Positions 1 to 31,866 of a DNA stretch of 64,000 nt are shown one piece after another. The position numbers and the translations under genes were made by a program. This DNA is from Terriglobia bacterium (GTDB taxonomy: Bacteria; Acidobacteriota; Terriglobia; 20CM-2-55-15), in contig CBDAOY010000006.1 in the NCBI GenBank assembly GCA_965198225.1, positions 416,001 to 480,000 on the forward strand, read 5' to 3'. Numbering within the stretch: position 1 is the first letter of the stretch; each line of letters starts with the position of its first letter. The notes beneath the pieces are model-generated. The model saw only the letters and a list, made by a program, of their open reading frames with translations. It was not told the origin of the DNA and ran no database searches.

Positions 1-1607
1 TTCCGCTGTTGATTGTGAAGGCGTCGATGATGTTCCAGGTGTTGTTCAGACGGTGGAATCCGCCGCCGGCTCCCAGGTTGTCGAACTGTCCGCTGAGCCG
101 GATGTCGTCGAACGAGTCGCGGTTCCGAGGAATCGCCGCCATCACCGGCGGCAACGGGATGCGCTGCTCGCCGACCAGCGACGTCAGCGAGTTGTAGACG
201 TCGGTCAATGGCTGCGCAAACCGGTTGAACCCGACCCGCACTTCATTGATCAACGTCGGCGAAATCACGCTGGTGAAGTTCATACCCGAGCTGGTCCGGA
301 ACCGCGGGTTCCACTGGCCGAAGTTCGGAAGGTTCCGTCCCGAAGACGTCTCGCTGCCGTAGGGGTTGAAGATGTCCTCGTTCGCGTAGCTGTACCGACC
401 GGAGAGACGGTGAACATCCGGGAAGGCATGATCCATTTTGATCGAGATATTGTCGAAGTTCTCGGTCTTGTTTCCGCCCGTGACCAGGTTTCGTCCGGTG
501 CCGGTCTGAGTCGGTGTCGGCCAGAAGTTCCCATCCAGCACCTCGCTAGAGAGTGCCGCCCACCGATCGCGCGGGATCACGTTGTTCGGGAACGGCTGGC
601 CGGTCAATGGATCGGTGACCGGACCGAGCTCGGAGAGGTCTCCGGCGCGCATCGCCAGGGTCGGGACCGTGCCACGACGAATGATCTGCTCGCGTTGACG
701 CTGGCCTTCGTAGGCCACGAAGAAGAACGTCTTATCGCGAACGACCGGCCCGCCGATCGTCCCACCGAACTGGTTCCTCAGAAACCCTTCTTTCTCCAGC
801 CCCGCTTCCTCGGCGAACAGCGTCGCGGTGTTGAGGGCCTTGTTGCGGTGGTAATTGAAGATCGCTCCGTGGAACTCGTTGGTTCCCGAGCGCGTCGTGA
901 CGTTGATCACCGCGCCGGCGTTGCGGCCGAACTCGGCGTTGTAGCCGGAGGACTGGACCTTGAACTCTTCGATCGCGTCGATCGACGGACGGTAGGCGAA
1001 GTTCCGGATGATCGTGTCGACGTTGTCGACGCCGTCAACGTAGAAGCTCTGGTAGTGCTCGTCCATCCCGGCCACGACGAAACCGCCGCGGGCACCGAGA
1101 TGCGATCCTTGATGCGCGGTCACGGCTTCCGGAACCAGCTGCACGAGGCTCTCGAAGTTCCTTCCGTTCAACGGGAGCTGAGTCACCTTCCGCTGGTCGA
1201 TGACAGTGCCGACCGACGAGTCCTCGGTTTGGATCAGCGGCGCTTCGGCGCTGACCTCGACGACCTCAGTCACCTGGCCAACCTGGAGCACAAGATCGAT
1301 CCGGGCGCGCTCGTCAACGTTCAGGGTGATGCCGCTGCGGACCGCGGTCTGGAAACCGGGAAGCACCGCTTCCACCCGGTAGTTACCGATCGGTAGCTGC
1401 GGAGCAGTGTAGTTTCCCGACTCGTTCGTGATTAAGTTTCGAGTCAGGTTCGTTCCTTCGTTTGTTACCGTAACCTCCGACGCCTGGCAATACCGCACCG
1501 GTGACGTCGCTTACGGTTCCGGTAATCGTACCGGTCGTGGACTGTGCGATCGCGCCACCGACCATCATCAGCGCGAGGGTCACGACCAACATCATTCGTT
1601 TAAGCAT
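1..1607 (-). CDS. TonB-dependent receptor with N-terminal carboxypeptidase-regulatory-like domain (acidobacterial Oar type); runs off window start; +1 frameshift near 1477
   Basis: Signal peptide MLKRMMLVVTLALMMVGGAIAQ, then STTGTITGTVSDVTGAVLPG. Removing one base of CC at 1477-1478 restores VEVTVTNEGTNLTR...TNESGNYTAPQLPIGNYRVEA...LPLNGRNF...DAIEEFKVQSSGYNAEFGRNAGAVINVTTRSGTNEFHG. GAGGAA RBS upstream of ATG. Confidence 0.85.
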
Positions 1608-25909: not shown

Positions 25910-26491
25910 TTGATGATACCTAACCCAGCTCTGCTCGAAATCGAGGCTCTCGCGGCGCAGCCGGCGGAAGCGGAAAACACACTGCAGATGGATCAGGACC
26001 AATTCTGCTCCCTGTATGAAAGGACTGCGCGGCCGCTATGGGTCTTCCTTCTCCGGCGAACCAGCGATGAGCATCTCGCCGACGATTTGCTTCAGGAGAC
26101 CTACTACCGGTTCCTGCGAACGCGCCGCGAGTACAACAACGAAGCCCACCGGCGGAACTACCTGTTTCGGATCGCTTCCAACGTGGCAAATGACGCGCTG
26201 CGACAAAGGCGGGACCGCTCCTTTTTCGCACTGGCCGACGAGGGGGGCGTGGCCGCGGCCACCGACGTCGCCGGCCAGAGTCAGAAACGGACCGACCTGG
26301 CCCGCGCTATGCAGCAGTTGAACGCCCGCCAGCAGGAGGCCCTGTGGCTCGCCTACGCCGAAGGGTCTTCGCACGAGGAGATCGCCGGGGTACTGGGCAT
26401 GAAGACAAACAGCGTCAAACTGCTGCTGTTCCGCGCCAGGCGAAAGCTCGCGGCTCTGCTGCGTGGCTCGGACGGGAGAACCGCACGATGA
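25910..26491 (+). CDS. ECF sigma-70 factor
   Basis: Region 2 ADDLLQETYYRFL...YLFRIASN; region 4 LNARQQEALWLAYAEGSSHEEIAGVLG...VKLLLFRARRKL. Confidence 0.93.
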   Translation: MMIPNPALLEIEALAAQPAEAENTLQMDQDQFCSLYERTARPLWVFLLRRTSDEHLADDLLQETYYRFLRTRREYNNEAHRRNYLFRIASNVANDALRQRRDRSFFALADEGGVAAATDVAGQSQKRTDLARAMQQLNARQQEALWLAYAEGSSHEEIAGVLGMKTNSVKLLLFRARRKLAALLRGSDGRTAR

Positions 26492-26997
26492 GACTGACCG
26501 AATGCAGTCGGGAACCGGAACTGGTCGAGGCCTTCGCCGAGGGCCGCTGGCCGGATGCGTGCGACGAAGACCTGCGACGGCACGCCGACCAATGTGCCGT
26601 TTGTGCGGACGTCCTGGAAGTAGCCTCTTCGATGCAGGACGACTATCGTTCGGCGATCGCCGAGGTGCAGGTGCCCTCGGCTTCCCTCGTCTGGTGGCGT
26701 GCGGAACTGCGAGCGCGCCACGAAGCTGCCCGAACCGCGGCTCGTCCGATCACTGTCGTACACGCCTTTGCCGCAGCGGCTGCCGTCGGAGTCATCCTGG
26801 CGCTGGGGGGGCTTCTCGTCCCCGTGATTCAGGGTTGGTTCGGCGGGCTATCGACGATTCTACCGCCGACGGTTGGCGCCGAAGCCAGCTTCCTGCCGAT
26901 GGCGGGAGTGCCTTTTGCCCTGCCCGCTATCCTCGGAATCGGCTGCTGCCTCTTACTGGCCCCTCTCGCCGTCTACTTCATTCTTTCGGAAAAGTAG
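26488..26997 (+). CDS. Putative membrane anti-sigma factor (zinc-binding HxxxCxxC)
   Basis: ATGA overlap with sigma stop; RHADQCAVC motif; WWRAELRAR; two TM helices. Confidence 0.8.
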   Translation: MRLTECSREPELVEAFAEGRWPDACDEDLRRHADQCAVCADVLEVASSMQDDYRSAIAEVQVPSASLVWWRAELRARHEAARTAARPITVVHAFAAAAAVGVILALGGLLVPVIQGWFGGLSTILPPTVGAEASFLPMAGVPFALPAILGIGCCLLLAPLAVYFILSEK

Positions 26998-27039: not shown

Positions 27040-28986
27040 TCAAGGCTCGGGCTCGCGCAGTTGCCCAAGCACGCCATGATGTCCCATCTTCTCCGCCCAC
27101 GCCCGGGGTTTCGCCCAGGGCTCGGCGTTGGCCTCCACCGGGTCGGCTCCCCGCTCCAGCAGCAGCTTCACCAGCTCGAGCCGACCCCACCGGCAGGCCC
27201 AGCCCAGCGGCGTGCTCTGGAGCAGATCGTCGCGTACATCCAGCCGGGCACCCGCATCCAGGAGCAGAGTCGCGAAAGCGACAACCTCCTCTCCGGTCAC
27301 GTGAGCGCCCATCGCGGCGACCTCGTGCAGGATCGTCTGGCCACCCCGTTCGGGTCGCACGTCAGGGCCACACCGCTCCAGGATGAGACGGAAGCACGTG
27401 AGGTAGGTGCCCCGGTCCAACTTCGGGTTCGCCGTGGGTATTCGCGCTATGTGATTCCAGAAGACCAAGGGTGACCATAGGATCCGGTACCATCGCGGAT
27501 CATCGGCCGGCCAGTCGATCCCGTCGAGCGCCATACGCACGATCTCGGGATCGCCGCCGCTCGCCGCGCTGTCGAGCAGGGTCTCGGCCAGCGTCTTCCC
27601 AGGCCCTGCCGCCCCGTTGGGGAGGCGACCAGCCGCCTCCTCGGCGAGCATCTGCCGCGCCAGATCAGTGTCCCGATAGTATCCGGCGTTCGCCGCATAC
27701 ACCACGCCACCATACCGCGCCAGCAGCTGGACCATCGTCGGGTCCCGCTCGCCATACGCCCTGCCGACCGGTGTGCCCGAGGTAAACACCTGGCCGTTGG
27801 GGTCTGCCCCCCGCTCGAGCAGCATTTCGGCCATGGCAAGCTTGCCGACGCCGGCACAACTGTAGAGCGGCATGCCCCACGAGTAGCCCACCTCCTCGGT
27901 TCCGGCCAGGCGCACCCGCTCGTCCGGGTCCAGCTCGAGATCCAGCAGCAGTTCCAACATCTCGGGCCGATCGTGCTTCACTGCAATCGTGAGTAAGCCG
28001 CTGAATGGGCCGAACACATCGAAGACGGTAGCGTTGGCCAGCCTGCCTTCAGCGTGCCGCGTTCGCACCCAGGCCGCGTCGCCCAGGGCCACGGCTGAAA
28101 CGGACGTCAGCTCGGCGCCATGCCGTAGAAGAAGCCTCGCGACGGATTTGAACCGCTCCGGGCCACCGGTCTTCTTCCTCCATCCCGTTTGGGAGGCCGC
28201 CAGGCCCAGCGGCGTCCAATCGTCCTTGCCGGTCCGATTCGCGTCTGCGCCGTGCGCCAGCAGCCAGGCTACTGTGTTTTCCTGGAGCATCGCCGCCGCT
28301 CGATGGAGCGGCGTCCATCCGGCAGGGTCGCTGGCCTGGATCAGCGCTGGATCAGCCTCCATCATCGCGACTGCCCGATCTTCGTCGTCCCGCCTCATCG
28401 CTTCCTCCAGCTCTGGAACCGGGGATGCGCTCGAGTTCGAACCGCGGCGAAGCGTCTCTGCTTCGTCGATGATGGAAACGATATCGTCATAGCTGCGCTC
28501 GCGGGCCAGGCGGAGCGCGCTCGTGGCTTCGCGGTGCGGCCAGATCCCGACTCGGGCGTCTGCCCCGTGTTCCATCAAGAGCCGGGCCATCGCCGCATCG
28601 CGACGCAGAACCGCTAAGTGCAACGCCCGGTACTCCCCGTGCCCTGGCCGCTCGAGATTGACGATTTCCGGCCGCCGGCGCAGCATGTCCCCGACCGCGA
28701 GCGCATCGCCGCGCTCGACCGCATCGCAGAGCCGGCCTGCCGTCACACCATCCACGAAGGCCTTGAGCTTCGGCCAGCTCTCTAAGCCATACGACCGCGC
28801 CAGCACGAGCTGTGCGTCATGCAGGGCGAAGCTCGATGCGTCCGCTTCGTGGTAATGGGCGTTCACCTCGGCAAAGGCGTCGGCCTCACCGGCAAGGAAC
28901 GTCTTCAACAGCTCCTTCGCTTGACGCTTGAGTTGAGGGAGGTTCGGTCGTTCCGGTAGTGAGCGGGTGGGCGGGTGTCTCTTCAC
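27040..28986 (-). CDS. Cytoplasmic ankyrin-repeat protein with N-terminal LPERPNLPQLKRQAKELL helical domain
   Basis: N-terminal LPERPNLPQLKRQAKELL...LHDAQLVLARSYGLESWPKLK; ankyrin repeats (ALHLAV, GWTPLHRAA, WTPLGLAA, STPLGWACRWG); AAGGAG RBS before GTG. Confidence 0.88.
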   Translation of the reverse strand: MKRHPPTRSLPERPNLPQLKRQAKELLKTFLAGEADAFAEVNAHYHEADASSFALHDAQLVLARSYGLESWPKLKAFVDGVTAGRLCDAVERGDALAVGDMLRRRPEIVNLERPGHGEYRALHLAVLRRDAAMARLLMEHGADARVGIWPHREATSALRLARERSYDDIVSIIDEAETLRRGSNSSASPVPELEEAMRRDDEDRAVAMMEADPALIQASDPAGWTPLHRAAAMLQENTVAWLLAHGADANRTGKDDWTPLGLAASQTGWRKKTGGPERFKSVARLLLRHGAELTSVSAVALGDAAWVRTRHAEGRLANATVFDVFGPFSGLLTIAVKHDRPEMLELLLDLELDPDERVRLAGTEEVGYSWGMPLYSCAGVGKLAMAEMLLERGADPNGQVFTSGTPVGRAYGERDPTMVQLLARYGGVVYAANAGYYRDTDLARQMLAEEAAGRLPNGAAGPGKTLAETLLDSAASGGDPEIVRMALDGIDWPADDPRWYRILWSPLVFWNHIARIPTANPKLDRGTYLTCFRLILERCGPDVRPERGGQTILHEVAAMGAHVTGEEVVAFATLLLDAGARLDVRDDLLQSTPLGWACRWGRLELVKLLLERGADPVEANAEPWAKPRAWAEKMGHHGVLGQLREPEP

Positions 28987-28992
28987 AATGAA

Positions 28993-29143
28993 CTCCTTCC
29001 CCGGCTGCGCGTATCCCGTCAGCCATGGCGCCCGGTGCCCGCTCGCTCGGACGGAAAAGAGATCATCGAAAACAGATGTGACTCTCGCTCAGTTCAGGAG
29101 GACGCAGTCCTTCCCGCGGACACGGCGGCGCCCTGACGCGCCG
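28993..29143 (-). promoter_or_regulatory. Putative structured cis-regulatory 5' leader RNA
   Basis: Starts about 7 nt after TATAAT (29149-29154, minus strand); nested stems CGUCAG/CUGACG, GGCGCC/GGCGCC, GUGUCCGC/GCGGGCAC, GGGAAGGA/UCUUUUCC; ends at the SD. Confidence 0.55.
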
Positions 29144-29223
29144 AGCGTATTATAAACCGCACGGGTGCATGTTGAAGCCCGTTCACCCGGCCGAATTGTC
29201 TGGACACCCTCGTTCAAGGTGTC

Positions 29224-29439
29224 GTGGAATCAATTCGTGGGAGGTTTCCGATGGGTGGCCGCGCGCCGAGACTCGAACGACAGGGTCCTGCAAAGAATCC
29301 GGTTGAGAGACAAGACGAATCTTCGAGAGGCGCGAACGATGTCGAAGAACCAACTTCCTCGAACACCGATGTCCTCGAGATCGACGATGAGTTCGACGCC
29401 CTCGCGCTAATGCGGTGGAGCGAGGAAGGCGGCCCGTAA
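29224..29439 (+). CDS. Small acidic hypothetical protein ending in RWSEEGGP
   Basis: 71-aa ORF filling an intergenic gap; a GGAGG precedes the internal ATG at about 29251; C-terminal RWxxEGG resembles a widespread small-protein motif (from recall). Confidence 0.4.
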   Translation: MESIRGRFPMGGRAPRLERQGPAKNPVERQDESSRGANDVEEPTSSNTDVLEIDDEFDALALMRWSEEGGP

Positions 29440-29507
29440 GACGCCGCCATCGGCCCGAAACGTAGCTGTCTTTCCGGACGTCCGCCCTGAACCGGCAAGA
29501 AGGACTC

Positions 29508-31106
29508 TCACTCGCGGGGCCCAGTGTCGAAATCTCGGGCCACAAGGGTGATCGCCTGACGCGCCAGGCGACGGACGTGCTTCATCTTGATCGGTGAGTG
29601 CAGGAATCGGTTCAGACCCGCCAGCAACGCATCCGCGCACGAATCTGAAACGTAAGGCAGCTCGGCCTGGACAGCGGCACTGGTCTTGAGCAGGTGCGCC
29701 GAAAAGATCGGGTCGCGGAGACCGTGGTCCAGCAGCCGGTCGCGTGCCTCGACAAAGAACGACGAAGGCTCTTCGACGCGCCACTCTTCCTGATCGATCG
29801 TTCGATCGACAAACCTGCGGTTGCGGCCCAGGAAACACGCCATCTGAACCAGTGCCTGCGGCCACAGGTGGGGATATTTCGTGCAGAGCGTGCGGGCCGC
29901 GTTGGAAAAAGTCAGGCCGTGAGTAAAGTCCAGCCATCCGATGTTCTGGCTGACAGGCCGGTCGTGGGCCGTCCCGTAACCGGTGTCGAAGTGCAGGAGG
30001 TTCAGGGCGAGGGCTTCCAGCAACGCGTCGTACACCGCCTCGTTTCCGAAGGTGCCGATGTTGTCACGGAGCCAGCCTAGAGCCTGCGACGTGGTTTTCG
30101 GAAAAGGGATATCGAGTCTGGTTCCGTCGGCGTGTTTGGTCCCAGGCCAGGGAAGGCTCTCCAGAGCCGGACCGTGGTCCTTGAACTCCGGTATCAGGTC
30201 TTCACGAGTCGCGTATCTGATGTGCCGCGCGAGTGCAGGCAACAGGAACGGGGCGGCCTCCGCTCCCAGCGATTCCAGCAACTGCCCGGTCTTCGCGACG
30301 TAGATGAGGCTGTGTCCGAAATCGTTGTAGTGCGCCAGCGCAGCGGCGGTGAACGCCTCCTCCATGTCGTTCCAGTGCAGCCCATCGGCCAACCCCCGGG
30401 ACACCATCCCTTCGGCAACATCATTCTGCTCAGACTCGATTGCTGCGCCGAAGGCCGTGGCCTCGAATGGTTCTCCGGCTGCAGCGTAGGGGTATTCGGA
30501 ATGCCGGAGTCTGTCGAACGCGAGGTGGTCGACGGCCTCCGCCAGGCAGATGAGGCGATCTTCGAATCGCCCAGGTAAGGTATCGGCTAGCGCCAGCCAG
30601 TCCGCGGTGGCCGCCATCGCGTGAGTGGTCCCGAATTCCAATCGCGCGTGCGTCCACTTCAACGCGGCCAGGACGGCATCCTTGGGATCGAGCTCATGGT
30701 AGTGGAGCCTTGCGATCTCGCGACAGATGCGGCCGAAATCACGGTCCTTGACCGCAACCTTCAACCCGCGGAGAACCTGACGCCGAATCTCGTCGGGCGG
30801 CGGATCCGAGATATCGACCCAGACGTGCCCGTCCTGCCGCCTAGTAGGGTAGCTTCGAACGTTATCCCCTCCGAGCAGACACTCCCCATCGGAGAGTCGA
30901 AACTTCCAGTTGTGCCAGTTGCAGGTTAGAACGCAATCGTCGGTGACGCTGCCCTCGGCCAGTGGGTATCCCTCATGGGGGCAGCGGTTATCGACAGCGA
31001 AAACGCGATCGTCGATCGCGAACACCGCAATCTGTCGCGGCGGATGGTTGAAGACGAAAGGCTTATCGCCGAGGTCGCTCAGGGAGACGGCTTGAGTCCA
31101 GGCCAT
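29508..31106 (-). CDS. Rieske [2Fe-2S] domain protein fused to a large helical His-motif domain
   Basis: DNRCPHEGYPL...LTCNWHNWKF Rieske ligands; C-terminal region with TTHAMAA, FGHSLIY, FTHGLTF, SAHLLK. Confidence 0.88.
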   Translation of the reverse strand: MAWTQAVSLSDLGDKPFVFNHPPRQIAVFAIDDRVFAVDNRCPHEGYPLAEGSVTDDCVLTCNWHNWKFRLSDGECLLGGDNVRSYPTRRQDGHVWVDISDPPPDEIRRQVLRGLKVAVKDRDFGRICREIARLHYHELDPKDAVLAALKWTHARLEFGTTHAMAATADWLALADTLPGRFEDRLICLAEAVDHLAFDRLRHSEYPYAAAGEPFEATAFGAAIESEQNDVAEGMVSRGLADGLHWNDMEEAFTAAALAHYNDFGHSLIYVAKTGQLLESLGAEAAPFLLPALARHIRYATREDLIPEFKDHGPALESLPWPGTKHADGTRLDIPFPKTTSQALGWLRDNIGTFGNEAVYDALLEALALNLLHFDTGYGTAHDRPVSQNIGWLDFTHGLTFSNAARTLCTKYPHLWPQALVQMACFLGRNRRFVDRTIDQEEWRVEEPSSFFVEARDRLLDHGLRDPIFSAHLLKTSAAVQAELPYVSDSCADALLAGLNRFLHSPIKMKHVRRLARQAITLVARDFDTGPRE

Positions 31107-31200: not shown

Positions 31201-31866
31201 GTGCCCGTGCCTGCCAAGTCTCAAACGCGCCGAGAGATCCTGAAGTGGCTCAAACACAAAGGTCCCCAGGACGCGACCGCTCTGGCCGATCGCCTGGACG
31301 TTTCGGCCATGGCGGTGAGGCAACATCTGTACGCCCTGCACCAAGAGCAGCTCGTAGAGAGCGAGCCGCAGCCACGGCCCGTCGGGAGGCCGGCGAAACT
31401 CTGGAAACTGACGGCCGAAGCCGAGGGTTTCTTTCCCGACGGACATTCGGATCTGACCCTCGATCTCCTCGCGGGCCTGCGCCAGGCCTTCGGCAACGAA
31501 GGTATAACGAAACTGCTGGAAGTCCGTGCCCGCCGGCAGGCGTCTGCCTATCGCGAACGGATACCACAGCGGGGTGCATTGCGAAAACGACTGGAAGCCC
31601 TGGCCCGGGTCCGAACGGGCGAGGGCTACATGGCCGAAGTCGTCGCCGAACGCGACGGCTCGTTCCTGTTCGTGGAAAATCACTGCTCCATCTGTGCCGC
31701 CGCTACGGCGTGCAGCGGATTGTGCGCCGGCGAACTGGACGTATTTCGCGCTGTGCTGGGCCCGGAAACCCGGATCGAGCGCGACGAGCATATCCTCGCC
31801 GGTGATCGGAGGTGCACATACCGGGTCCGACCGACCGGAAGGCGATCGCGGGCGAAGAGCTCCTGA
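31201..31866 (+). CDS. SufR-like HTH metalloregulator (ArsR/DeoR-type HTH plus Cys-containing sensor domain)
   Basis: LADRLDVSAMAVRQHL HTH, VGRPAKLWKLT, EGYMA, ENHCSICAAATACSGLCAGEL, GDRRCTY. Confidence 0.88.
   Translation: MPVPAKSQTRREILKWLKHKGPQDATALADRLDVSAMAVRQHLYALHQEQLVESEPQPRPVGRPAKLWKLTAEAEGFFPDGHSDLTLDLLAGLRQAFGNEGITKLLEVRARRQASAYRERIPQRGALRKRLEALARVRTGEGYMAEVVAERDGSFLFVENHCSICAAATACSGLCAGELDVFRAVLGPETRIERDEHILAGDRRCTYRVRPTGRRSRAKSS

What the first reader, a model, noticed from the sequence alone, without database searches (positions are those of the whole stretch)
28987..29154. Switch-like structured 5' leader RNA ahead of an LPxRPNLxQLKRQAK-domain ankyrin gene
Seen (minus strand): a perfect TATAAT, then a ~150-nt leader with nested long-range stems (CGUCAG/CUGACG, GGCGCC/GGCGCC, GUGUCCGC/GCGGGCAC, GGGAAGGA/UCUUUUCC) and inner hairpins (GGAC-UGC-GUCC; GAGAGUCA...UGAUCUC). 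Mutually exclusive alternatives exist: a GGCUG/CAGCC hairpin next to the SD, and two anti-SD tracts (CUCCU, UCUUUUCC) complementary to the SD GGAAGGAG. I cannot match it to a named riboswitch. From recall and unverified: this N-terminal helical domain occurs fused to diverse C-terminal domains, often behind similar leaders. Inference: an RNA element plus cognate RNA-binding domain forming an autoregulatory or stress-sensing module.
Basis: partly seen in the sequence, partly recalled or inferred. Interest (0 to 1): 0.7.

Follow-up and report, generated by a model that had tools for sequence, protein, structure and literature searches.

The report
New pseudoknotted leader RNA before ankyrin genes
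The stretch is a real, strongly conserved folded RNA at the start of a messenger RNA that hides the ribosome-binding site, it occurs in at least ten bacterial phyla, almost always in front of genes whose proteins begin with one uncharacterised helical domain, and it matched no catalogued RNA family.

Summary
Window 29140..29026 (- strand) is one member of a conserved ~105-115-nt 5'-leader RNA.

- **Catalogue status:** it matches nothing in Rfam 15.
- **Structure:** comparative analysis supports five helices, P0, PK, P1, P2 and Pb. They form a nested double pseudoknot: about 95% of cells pair, against 34-47% in slid controls, and 0 of 500 shuffles reach the observed values.
- **SD sequestration:** a helix of mean 11.2 bp buries the Shine-Dalgarno site. 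Mean duplex energy is -14.5 kcal/mol against -7.5 when the anti-SD strand is shuffled.
- **Promoter:** a -10-like hexamer sits at a fixed distance in 93 of 118 copies, so the motif starts at the transcript's 5' end.
- **Distribution:** All 80 loci fetched matched the covariance model; by their record titles I place them in 10 phyla.
- **Gene association:** 76 of those 80 are followed at once by an ORF starting with the same basic ~75-aa helical domain. The C-termini vary: ankyrin, LRR, Clp_N, glyoxalase.
only some hold. Its RNA-plus-domain module is strongly supported as an association, but binding is untested.
- **Best guess:** translational autoregulation by the N-domain (about 0.4).

The parts
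29149..29154 (-). -10 promoter hexamer TATAAT; predicted transcription start about 29142 (inferred, not mapped)
   Evidence: Sequence. A TAnnnT hexamer starts 18-22 nt upstream of the PK 5' strand in 93 of 118 copies; here it starts 19 nt upstream. A TTGAC-like -35 lies at -45..-42 in 32 of 118. The window's own -35 is weak, and the simple scan found no full promoter.
29026..29140 (-). Conserved leader RNA motif, the covariance-model match
   Evidence: R1 103.9 bits, E 1.3e-19; R2 91.1 bits. It is the only copy in the 6.4-Mb genome. No Rfam match.
29129..29140 (-). P0: 5'-terminal 3-bp hairpin (CGC 29140-29138 / GCG 29131-29129). Its loop holds the PK 5' strand CAGG (29135-29132).
   Evidence: All 3 pairs show changes on both sides (CG/UA/AU/GC types) in A7 and A4.
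29095..29098 (-). PK 3' strand CCUG, pairing with CAGG 29135-29132 (pseudoknot)
   Evidence: Column 8-53: AU 43, GC 24, GU 4. Column 7-54: CG 32, UA 8, AU 6 and others. 3 of 4 pairs have double changes in A4.
29116..29123 (-). P1 5' strand GUGUCCGC, preceded by the conserved C-rich joiner CCGCC (29128-29124)
   Evidence: P1 has double changes in 4 of 7 pairs in the model-found set A4, for example GUCUGC/GCAGAC and GUUCGC/GCGAAC. It is invariant in A7 because the search pattern fixed it.
29100..29115 (-). Joiner GGGAA (29115-29111; consensus GG-R-AA, always 5 nt) and P2 hairpin GGAC-UGC-GUCC (29110-29100)
   Evidence: P2 pairs in 99-100% of cells. The inner pairs covary: GC 62 / AU 17, and CG 55 / AU 16 / UG 5 / UA 2. 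Joiner length is 5 nt in 80 of 80.
29067..29094 (-). Variable region (P3; different hairpins in different lineages)
   Evidence: The alignments show no conservation here. The stretch from PK 3' to Pb 5' is 29-45 nt long.
29053..29066 (-). Anti-SD strand AUGAUCUCUUUUCC
   Evidence: By my hand pairing of the sequence it pairs with 29001-28988 at 13 of 14 positions. The MFE fold also pairs this tract with the SD tract. Family-wide duplex statistics.
29030..29052 (-). Pb helix (GUCCG 29052-29048 / CGGGC 29034-29030). Its loop carries the P1 3' strand GCGGGCAC (29042-29035).
   Evidence: Pb column 106-129: CG 37, UA 34, UG 4, GC 3. 97.4% of cells pair. Loop lengths: 3-7 nt before the P1 3' strand and 1-3 nt after it.
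29003..29024 (-). Linker hairpin GGCUG..CAGCC; lineage-specific, not part of the core motif
   Evidence: Sequence. A hairpin of different sequence at the same place in the 72%-identical orthologues is my reading by eye. Most other lineages have a short linker instead.
28988..29001 (-). SD strand GGGAAGGAGUUCAU, paired with the anti-SD. It ends 1 nt before the GTG start codon (28986-28984).
28732..28986 (-). Codons 1-85 of the 648-aa gene (27040-28986): the N-terminal helical domain (LPxRPxLxQLKRQAK ... AQLVLARSYGxxSWxKLK)
   Evidence: No Pfam hit for residues 1-85 of this protein; ankyrin repeats from about residue 110. Alignment A5. AlphaFold2 gives 4 helices, pLDDT 79.5. 10,829 representative clusters at E <= 0.001.

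Best explanation
The region is the promoter-proximal 5' leader of the ankyrin gene's mRNA. It belongs to a large RNA family that matched nothing in Rfam.

**Fold, from about +1 of the transcript.**
- A short terminal hairpin, P0. Its loop (CAGG) pairs with CCUG downstream of hairpin P2; this is pseudoknot PK.
- A long-range helix, P1 (GUCCGC/GCGGAC), which closes the domain.
- The 3' strand of P1 lies in the loop of a further helix, Pb (GCCYG/CRGGC).
- Pb continues into a helix of about 11 bp that pairs a pyrimidine-rich strand with the Shine-Dalgarno site and the bases up to the start codon.

**Consequence.** The conserved fold is a ribosome-binding-site-occluded (OFF) state. The element acts on translation initiation.

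**How far each step goes.**
- Shown: the helices and the SD pairing, through covariation and duplex statistics.
- Inferred: that the effect is on translation.
- Guessed: the trigger.

**Trigger I think most likely.** It is the encoded protein's own basic N-terminal domain. It would bind the pseudoknot core and stabilise the occluded fold, giving negative feedback. It might do so co-translationally and in cis, which would fit its nearly always N-terminal position.

**Confidence.** About 0.9 that this is a genuine conserved cis-acting leader RNA that sequesters the SD. About 0.4 for autoregulation by the N-domain. The figure in the confidence field is for the full statement.
For: **Structure.**
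- Unselected set A4 (39 model-found copies): 94.6% of 889 cells pair, 15 of 23 pairs have double changes, 0 of 500 shuffles reach the observed values, and slid controls give 37-47%.
- Set A7 (80 copies): 94.8% pair, 11 pairs have double changes, 0 of 500, slid controls 34-47.5%.
- An all-against-all column scan ranks the proposed pairs first (106-129, 8-53, 36-46, 35-47) and finds no further helix.
- G-U pairs occur on the sense strand.

**SD helix.**
- 64 of 64 loci beat their own shuffled anti-SD: mean -14.5 against -7.5 kcal/mol.
- Cognate against non-cognate tails: -14.5 against -9.7 kcal/mol. The cognate tail is in the top 10% for 45 of 64. Mean length 11.2 bp.
- The MFE fold of the window's leader contains this helix.

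**Promoter.** A -10-like hexamer lies at a fixed distance in 93 of 118 copies.

**Coupling to the domain.**
- 76 of 80 loci from 10 phyla have the domain directly downstream.
- 16 RNA hits for 16 domain genes in five Acidobacteriota genomes.
- 8 RNA hits, each beside one of 9 domain genes, in Streptomyces, Burkholderia, Gemmatimonas, Nonomuraea and Rugosimonospora.
- One RNA and one domain gene in the window's own genome.

**C-terminal domains differ.** Of 32 proteins scanned: 26 ankyrin only, 1 ankyrin plus glyoxalase, 1 ankyrin plus LRR, 2 LRR only, 1 Clp_N, 2 with no Pfam hit.

**The domain itself.**
- It is basic while the rest of the protein is acidic.
- In most of the 150 best of 10,829 representative clusters the match starts within the first 20 residues.
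Against: - No test of RNA binding was possible. The domain resembles no known RNA-binding fold: Foldseek found nothing at E <= 0.001 and the best VIA Z was 3.9.
- A mean 11-bp SD helix stacked on Pb looks too stable for a default-ON, feedback-repressed gene. It suggests a default-OFF element that needs an activator.
- Up to four paralogues with leaders occur in one genome. They would cross-regulate unless binding is cis-preferential or specific.
- One intact RNA (L140, Phycisphaeraceae) precedes an ORF without the domain, and L109 has no recognisable domain.
- One Gemmatimonas domain gene has no RNA hit at E <= 0.1.
- Co-inheritance of leader and first exon-like module from one ancestor could explain the association without any physical contact.
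- Set A7 was chosen with a pattern that fixes P1 and parts of P2 and PK. The model alignments are fitted to P1 and P2.
Confidence: 0.4

Rival explanations
1. It is an orphan riboswitch. The double-pseudoknot core is an aptamer for a small molecule or ion. Binding shifts the balance between the SD-occluded fold and an open form, and the N-domain proteins act on or respond to that ligand.
For: - The core is compact and pseudoknotted, with strictly conserved unpaired joiners: GG-R-AA is always 5 nt, and there are a C-rich joiner and a single base between P2 and PK.
- The expression platform is uniform SD sequestration.
- There is precedent for a candidate tied almost exclusively to one gene of unknown function: the yjdF motif (abstract of PMC4793209 as listed).
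Against: - Across 10 phyla the RNA almost never precedes any other gene family. The common denominator is a domain, not an enzyme or a transporter.
- The C-terminal parts are protein-interaction repeats.
- No covarying alternative structure was found.
- No ligand can be inferred.
Confidence: 0.25
2. The leader is the RNA partner of a ribonucleoprotein, or of another trans-acting factor. After or besides its cis role, the folded 5' domain stays bound to the N-domain as a functional subunit or anchor. Alternatively, a separate regulator, sRNA or RNase acts on it and opens the SD helix.
For: - The association with one ORF type is strict.
- The motif sits at the very 5' end of the transcript.
- The default-OFF SD helix implies an activating factor.
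- Recalled precedent: the HEARO RNA upstream of IscB genes turned out to be the protein's partner RNA.
Against: No evidence of a stable separate RNA species. No RNA-seq cover of the leader was found. The SD helix is a plain regulatory feature.
Confidence: 0.17
3. It is a physical sensor or a constitutive element. Either an RNA thermometer melts the U-rich anti-SD/SD helix, or the structured 5' end only stabilises the mRNA and damps translation.
For: The anti-SD is U-rich, with G-U pairs and mismatches. A 5'-terminal hairpin could protect the transcript.
Against: A thermometer or stabiliser needs no conserved double pseudoknot with invariant joiners. It would not stay confined to one protein domain across 10 phyla.
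Confidence: 0.1
4. It is not an RNA structure at all. The conservation reflects a DNA operator and promoter, or chance stems in G+C-rich sequence.
For: The single-sequence fold is no better than shuffles. A conserved promoter lies directly upstream.
Against: Compensatory changes in five helices, with G-U pairs on the sense strand only, exceed shuffles and slid controls. Cognate-specific SD pairing is found. All 80 loci fetched match the model at full length.
Confidence: 0.03

Closest known systems
Autoregulatory mRNA leaders bound by their own gene product, for example the pseudoknotted ribosomal-protein S15 and S4 (alpha operon) leaders and the RNase E, PNPase and ThrRS leaders (recalled, not tested here)
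   Same: A 5'-UTR structure confined to one gene family. The pseudoknot includes or stacks on the ribosome-binding site. The expected outcome is control of translation initiation.
   Different: The protein here is not a known RNA-binding protein. The association is with an N-terminal domain shared by proteins with different C-termini. The spread over at least 10 phyla is wider than I recall for most such leaders. Binding is untested.
yjdF motif and other orphan riboswitch candidates tied to a single gene of unknown function (abstract of PMC4793209 seen in the listing)
   Same: A conserved structured leader found almost exclusively before one protein family whose function is unknown. The ligand cannot be guessed from the gene context.
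   Different: No sequence or model similarity: Rfam found no match. The fold is different. Here the downstream proteins are repeat scaffolds.
HDV-like self-cleaving ribozymes (fold recalled)
   Same: The same order of strands. PK 5', P1 5', P2 hairpin, PK 3', variable hairpin and P1 3' correspond to P1, P2, P3, P1', P4 and P2' of the nested double pseudoknot.
   Different: The first PK pair is a covarying Watson-Crick pair, not a conserved G-U. The joiner before the P1 3' strand is variable, with no invariant C. The extra helices P0 and Pb and the SD helix are present. No Rfam HDV model matched. Cleavage about 5 nt from the transcript start would serve no evident purpose.
HEARO RNA / IscB omega-RNA (recalled)
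   Same: An RNA motif directly upstream of, and strictly associated with, one ORF family across distant bacteria.
   Different: No mobile-element context was seen. No nuclease domain is present. This leader buries the SD like a regulatory element. No Rfam match.
Pseudoknot riboswitches that include the SD in the aptamer (SAM-II, preQ1-II; recalled)
   Same: H-type pseudoknot logic, with the ribosome-binding site held in or stacked on the pseudoknot.
   Different: This RNA is much larger, with two interlocked pseudoknots. There is no similarity to those models. The gene context is unrelated to SAM or preQ1.

Membership tests
Any Rfam 15 family (4227 models) | Match to a curated covariance model | tested here: not met
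   Permissive E-value scan of window 28000-30000: only two chance hits to viral pseudoknot models (E 3.4 and 8.7, far below gathering scores). Ten loci from other phyla: 0 matches at E <= 1.
HDV-like ribozyme | Nested double-pseudoknot strand order | tested here: met
   The strand order follows from the covariation-supported helices. The comparison with the HDV fold is from recall.
HDV-like ribozyme | Conserved G-U wobble at the first P1 pair beside the cleavage site, and an invariant catalytic C in the joiner before the last strand | tested here: not met
   First PK pair: CG 32, UA 8, AU 6, UG 3, GC 2, GU 1, other 24. The joiner between Pb 5' and P1 3' is 3-7 nt, with no base conserved at 60% or more.
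Riboswitch (generic) | Conserved aptamer-like fold supported by covariation | tested here: met
Riboswitch (generic) | Expression platform able to control the downstream gene | tested here: met
   Anti-SD/SD helix in 64 of 64 loci analysed.
Riboswitch (generic) | Selective binding of a small molecule or ion, with alternative conformations | not testable with these tools
No covarying alternative helix was found.
Autoregulatory protein-binding leader | RNA confined to the gene(s) encoding the binding protein | tested here: met
   76 of 80. 16 RNA hits for 16 domain genes. 8 RNA hits, each beside one of 9 domain genes.
Autoregulatory protein-binding leader | The gene product binds the leader specifically | not testable with these tools
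   Indirect only: the N-domain has pI 9.3 and net charge +3.7. No fold relative was found.
RNA thermometer (fourU/ROSE-like; features recalled) | A simple hairpin pairing the SD with a U-rich strand, with no further conserved architecture | tested here: inconclusive
   U-rich anti-SD pairing is present. It is embedded in a conserved double pseudoknot, which thermometers do not need.
Pfam PF20066 (Glyoxalase_8), for the N-domain | Score over the curated cut-off across the whole model | tested here: not met
   13 of 34 N-domains give weak hits (best E 9.3e-6). In the two hits whose stretch was shown, the matched part was profile positions 4/5 to 56/59 of 143, below the 23.7-bit cut-off. The window's own domain has no Pfam hit.

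The most novel reading that the evidence does not exclude
The leader and the N-terminal domain form a widespread bacterial 'RNA-and-ORF' module of a new type. The nascent basic N-domain captures the double-pseudoknot at the 5' end of its own mRNA. The result is either a strictly cis-acting, co-translational dosage limiter, or a lasting ribonucleoprotein in which the RNA is a working subunit or anchor for ankyrin/LRR scaffolds. That would define both a new RNA class and a new RNA-binding domain family with more than 10,000 sequence clusters.
Probability: 0.15. Interest if true: 0.92.

Novelty: new variant of a known kind. Interest (0 to 1): 0.8.

Why it matters
- **A large unlisted RNA class.** Structured 5'-leader RNAs that span many phyla are rare, and most are thought to be catalogued. 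This one matched nothing in Rfam 15. In three central discovery or review papers the search listing shows 0 occurrences of 'ankyrin' in the main text.
- **A handle on an unknown domain.** The RNA marks, and presumably controls, a protein domain of unknown function with 10,829 representative clusters. The domain heads ankyrin, LRR and other scaffolds in soil Acidobacteriota, Actinomycetota (including Streptomyces), Planctomycetota, Verrucomicrobiota, Gemmatimonadota and Proteobacteria.
- **Testable outcomes.** If the domain binds the RNA, that defines a new RNA-binding fold and a clean model of cis autoregulation. If a metabolite binds, it is a new orphan riboswitch pointing to unknown biology. 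Either outcome can be tested directly with the consensus and coordinates given here.

Tried and rejected
- **Single-sequence folding.** It gives no signal (z = -0.38). The simple promoter and terminator scan found nothing.
- **My first extension of P1.** Pairing the 5' GCC with the 3' GGC was wrong. Sequences such as L075 and L100 break it, and P0 and Pb explain both strands.
- **P1 against Pb.** I first read them as mutually exclusive. Loop lengths of 3-7 nt before and 1-3 nt after the P1 3' strand allow both to form as an H-type pseudoknot. That is geometric reasoning, not a test, so it gives no evidence of a switch.
Anti-SD with the GG-R-AA-GG joiner is no better than shuffles.
- **The search for related loci.** It rejected N-domain alignments A5 and A6 for lack of a conserved 7-10-column stretch. 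I used a DNA pattern scan instead.
- **PF20066.** No match in 301 genomes of the phylum, and the control genomes gave no match either, so this is uninformative.
- **Fold and sequence look-ups of the N-domain.**
  - Foldseek PDB: nothing at E <= 0.001.
  - VIA wide: best Z 3.9.
  - PDB profile search: best E 0.14.
  - ESM Atlas: unnamed clusters only, scores 0.82-0.88.
  - PADLOC: hits only through ankyrin repeats.
- **Expression.** One run on record as RNA held a tenth of the sampled words. Its single 155-nt contig lies at 29316-29470, upstream of the leader. The three other runs laid nothing. This gives no evidence for or against transcription of the leader.
- **16S rRNA mimicry.** The core CCGCGG-N-AA also occurs in the genome's own 16S rRNA near position 508, but BLAST shows no wider similarity.
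- **Literature.** Searches found no description of this motif or domain. Supplementary tables of the large motif surveys were not read and could list it under another name.
Full report
**1. What is at the coordinates**

The window lies at G000:C6:416001-480000.

- On the - strand a 648-aa ORF (27040..28986, GTG start) encodes ankyrin repeats from about residue 110. Its first 85 residues hit no Pfam or NCBIfam model.
- Upstream on the same strand a 532-aa Rieske-domain gene ends at 29508. This leaves a 521-nt spacer.
- Taken alone, the leader is not special. The MFE is -69.8 kcal/mol against -68.1 +/- 4.5 for shuffles (z = -0.38). The simple promoter scan found nothing. A permissive Rfam scan gave only two chance hits.

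**2. Comparative evidence changes the picture**

- Orthologues and more distant homologues of the protein in related genomes carry upstream regions with long conserved blocks.
- I built a covariance model from 11 leaders (R1).
  - It found one copy in the window's genome.
  - It found 27 hits in 14 of 34 genomes of the family.
- A second model from 29 sequences (R2) found hits in 13 of 151 genomes sampled across the phylum, under stricter filters.
- Source names on protein homologues place the window in Acidobacteriota (Terriglobia and Blastocatellia).
- I then scanned one genome for each of 185,579 species with a narrow pattern. It matches only 14 of my 39 known copies.
  - All 80 loci fetched match R2 over its full length, at 38.8-96.2 bits.
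- By record titles, with three names checked and the rest placed from my own knowledge, the 80 are:

| Phylum | Loci |
|---|---|
| Acidobacteriota | 46 |
| Actinomycetota (Streptomyces, Nonomuraea, Amycolatopsis, Pseudonocardia, Nocardiopsis, Rugosimonospora, Solirubrobacterales) | 12 |
| Gemmatimonadota | 5 |
| Pseudomonadota (a Burkholderia and Alphaproteobacteria among them) | 5 |
| Verrucomicrobiota | 4 |
| Planctomycetota | 3 |
| Eisenbacteria | 2 |
| Chloroflexota | 1 |
| Armatimonadota | 1 |
| Vulcanimicrobiota | 1 |

- Ten of these loci from different phyla gave 0 Rfam matches at E <= 1.

**3. Structure**

Five helices are supported.

- **P0:** a 3-bp hairpin at the extreme 5' end (CGC/GCG).
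- **PK:** the P0 loop CAGG pairs with CCUG just after P2.
- **P1:** GUCCGC pairs with GCGGAC about 75 nt downstream.
- **P2:** a 4-5-bp hairpin.
- **Pb:** GCCYG pairs with CRGGC, and its loop holds the P1 3' strand.

Counts on the two alignments:

| Set | Cells paired | Pairs with double changes | Shuffles reaching observed | Slid controls |
|---|---|---|---|---|
| A4, 39 model-found copies (P0, PK, Pb not in the model) | 94.6% | 15 of 23 | 0 of 500 | 37-47% |
| A7, 80 pattern-found copies | 94.8% | 11 of 23 | 0 of 500 | 34-47.5% |

- The best single pair is Pb column 106-129: CG 37, UA 34, UG 4, GC 3.
- P1 is invariant in A7 only because the pattern fixed it. It covaries in A4.
- An all-against-all column scan puts these pairs on top and shows no further helix.
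- Joiner lengths are tight. GG-R-AA is 5 nt in 80 of 80, and there is 1 nt between P2 and PK in 80 of 80.
- The strand order (PK, P1, P2 hairpin, PK', variable hairpin, P1') is that of a nested double pseudoknot.
- Loop lengths of 3-7 nt before and 1-3 nt after the P1 3' strand allow P1 and Pb to stack. This is my geometric reasoning, not a test.

**4. Expression platform**

- The 14 nt just 5' of Pb pair with the SD and the bases up to the start codon.
- Over the 64 loci with a clear start, the duplex averages -14.5 kcal/mol against -7.5 for a shuffled anti-SD. All 64 beat their own control.
- Cognate pairs average -14.5 against -9.7 for non-cognate pairs. The cognate is in the top 10% for 45 of 64 and is the best partner for 12 of 64. 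Mean length is 11.2 bp.
- So the flanks of the SD covary with the anti-SD. I read examples: CGAAC with GUUCG, AAAAC with GUUUU, GCGAUC with GAUCGU.
- In the window, by my hand pairing of the sequence, 29066-29053 pairs with 29001-28988 at 13 of 14 positions. The MFE fold contains this helix.
- The conserved fold therefore hides the ribosome-binding site.

**5. Promoter**

- A TAnnnT hexamer starts 18-22 nt upstream of the PK 5' strand in 93 of 118 copies. In the window it starts 19 nt upstream.
- A TTGAC-like box lies at -45..-42 in 32 of 118.
- The motif therefore begins 1-3 nt after the predicted start. This is inferred. No RNA-seq cover of the leader was found.

**6. Gene association**

- Every evaluable hit in the family and phylum searches precedes an ORF that begins with the same domain.
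  - That is 38 of 39. The 39th sits 28 nt from a contig end.
  - The domain profile was built from 34 of these proteins, so the independent test is the next point.
- In the 80 pattern-found loci, the profile finds the domain in the 520 nt downstream of 76. The four exceptions:
  - L134 and L142 start with the domain's first residues and then break.
  - L109 shows none.
  - L140 has an ORF that starts with the ankyrin-like part.
- Genome-wide counts agree.
  - In G017, G045, G019, G023 and G011: 16 RNA hits and 16 domain genes, always adjacent. There is also one weak partial domain hit without an RNA.
  - In a Streptomyces, a Burkholderia, a Gemmatimonas, a Nonomuraea and a Rugosimonospora genome: 8 RNA hits, each beside one of 9 domain genes.
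- The C-terminal parts differ. Of 32 proteins: 26 ankyrin only, 1 ankyrin plus glyoxalase, 1 ankyrin plus LRR, 2 LRR only, 1 Clp_N, 2 with no Pfam hit. The Streptomyces and Burkholderia proteins also carry ankyrin repeats.
- The domain:
  - It is predicted as four helices (pLDDT 79.5).
  - It is basic (net charge +3.7, pI 9.3), against pI 6.0 for the rest of the protein.
  - It has 10,829 representative clusters at E <= 0.001. In most of the 150 listed the match starts within the first 20 residues, and many show 2-3 matched stretches.
  - It has no fold or sequence relative of known function.
  - 13 of 34 copies weakly match Pfam Glyoxalase_8. In the two hits whose stretch was shown, the match was to the N-terminal third of that model.

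**7. How it most likely works**

- Shown: a conserved double-pseudoknot leader that starts near +1 and holds the SD in a long helix.
- Inferred: it controls translation initiation.
- The trigger is open. The restriction of the RNA to one N-terminal, basic domain, whatever follows it and across 10 phyla, is the signature of leaders bound by their own gene product. I therefore favour autoregulation by the N-domain, possibly co-translational and in cis (about 0.4).
- Against this reading:
  - The SD helix looks default-OFF.
  - Paralogues coexist in one genome.
  - Binding is untested.
  - L140 exists.
- Rivals: an orphan riboswitch (0.25), an RNP or other trans factor (0.17), a thermometer or constitutive element (0.1), and no RNA function (0.03).

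**8. Comparison with known families**

- The RNA is not a member of any Rfam family.
- It shares strand topology with HDV-like ribozymes. It lacks their conserved G-U pair and catalytic C, so membership is rejected.
- Functionally it resembles pseudoknotted autoregulatory leaders and single-gene orphan riboswitch candidates such as yjdF (abstract seen in the listing).
- Literature searches found no description.
  - In Weinberg 2017 (PMC5737381), Narunsky 2024 (PMC11109978) and Sherlock & Breaker 2020 (PMC7266159), the listing shows 0 occurrences of 'ankyrin' in the main text.
  - I saw listings and abstract openings only, and no supplements. A record under another name cannot be excluded.

**9. 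Verdict**

- The object is a genuine, widespread leader RNA class that I found in no catalogue or paper, coupled to an uncharacterised protein domain.

Noticed in passing
window 29224-29439 (+) and 29316-29470: A 71-aa ORF with an acidic C-terminal half lies on the opposite strand in the spacer upstream of the leader. It hits no NCBIfam model and has no counterpart in the 31 related loci held at that point. The only contig laid from an RNA library (155 nt, identical) covers 29316-29470.
   Followed up: partly
L140 (Phycisphaeraceae MAG), RNA at 690-804 (-): An intact copy of the leader (53.8 bits) precedes an ORF that lacks the N-terminal domain and starts directly with the ankyrin-like part. 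L109 likewise shows no recognisable domain downstream.
   Followed up: partly
G199:C1:4880733-4881026 (Gemmatimonas MAG): This N-domain gene (E 4.5e-10, 573-aa frame) has no leader RNA hit at E <= 0.1. It is the only one of 9 domain genes in five non-Acidobacteriota genomes without one.
   Followed up: no
G017:C32:46178-46678; G200:C7:58182-58697; G011:C646:893-2968: The N-domain occurs twice within one reading frame in some proteins: in tandem, or once again far downstream. Many of the 150 best representative proteins show 2-3 matched stretches.
   Followed up: no
window 29121-29111 (-) and L234 (own 16S rRNA, about position 508): The leader's invariant core CCGCGG-N-AA also occurs in the genome's own 16S rRNA. 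I recall that region as the conserved 530-loop. BLAST shows no similarity beyond these 9 positions, so this is probably chance.
   Followed up: partly
window 29115-29108 and 29001-28994 (-): The octamer GGGAAGGA occurs twice in the window's leader: once in the P1-P2 joiner and once as the SD. Family-wide, the joiner is SD-like (GG-R-AA-GG), but its pairing with the anti-SD is no better than shuffles.
   Followed up: yes
window 25910-26997 (+), 29508-31106 (-), 31201-31866 (+): Neighbouring genes are an ECF sigma factor with a probable anti-sigma ORF convergent with the ankyrin gene, a 532-aa protein with an N-terminal Rieske domain directly upstream, and an ArsR/MarR-like HTH protein. I did not test whether these neighbours are conserved.
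   Followed up: no
L089 (G045:C25), L112, L144, L166, L182, L134, L142: Several leader-associated genes in MAGs carry frameshifts or early stops within or just after the N-domain. These may be assembly errors or decaying copies that still keep the leader.
   Followed up: no
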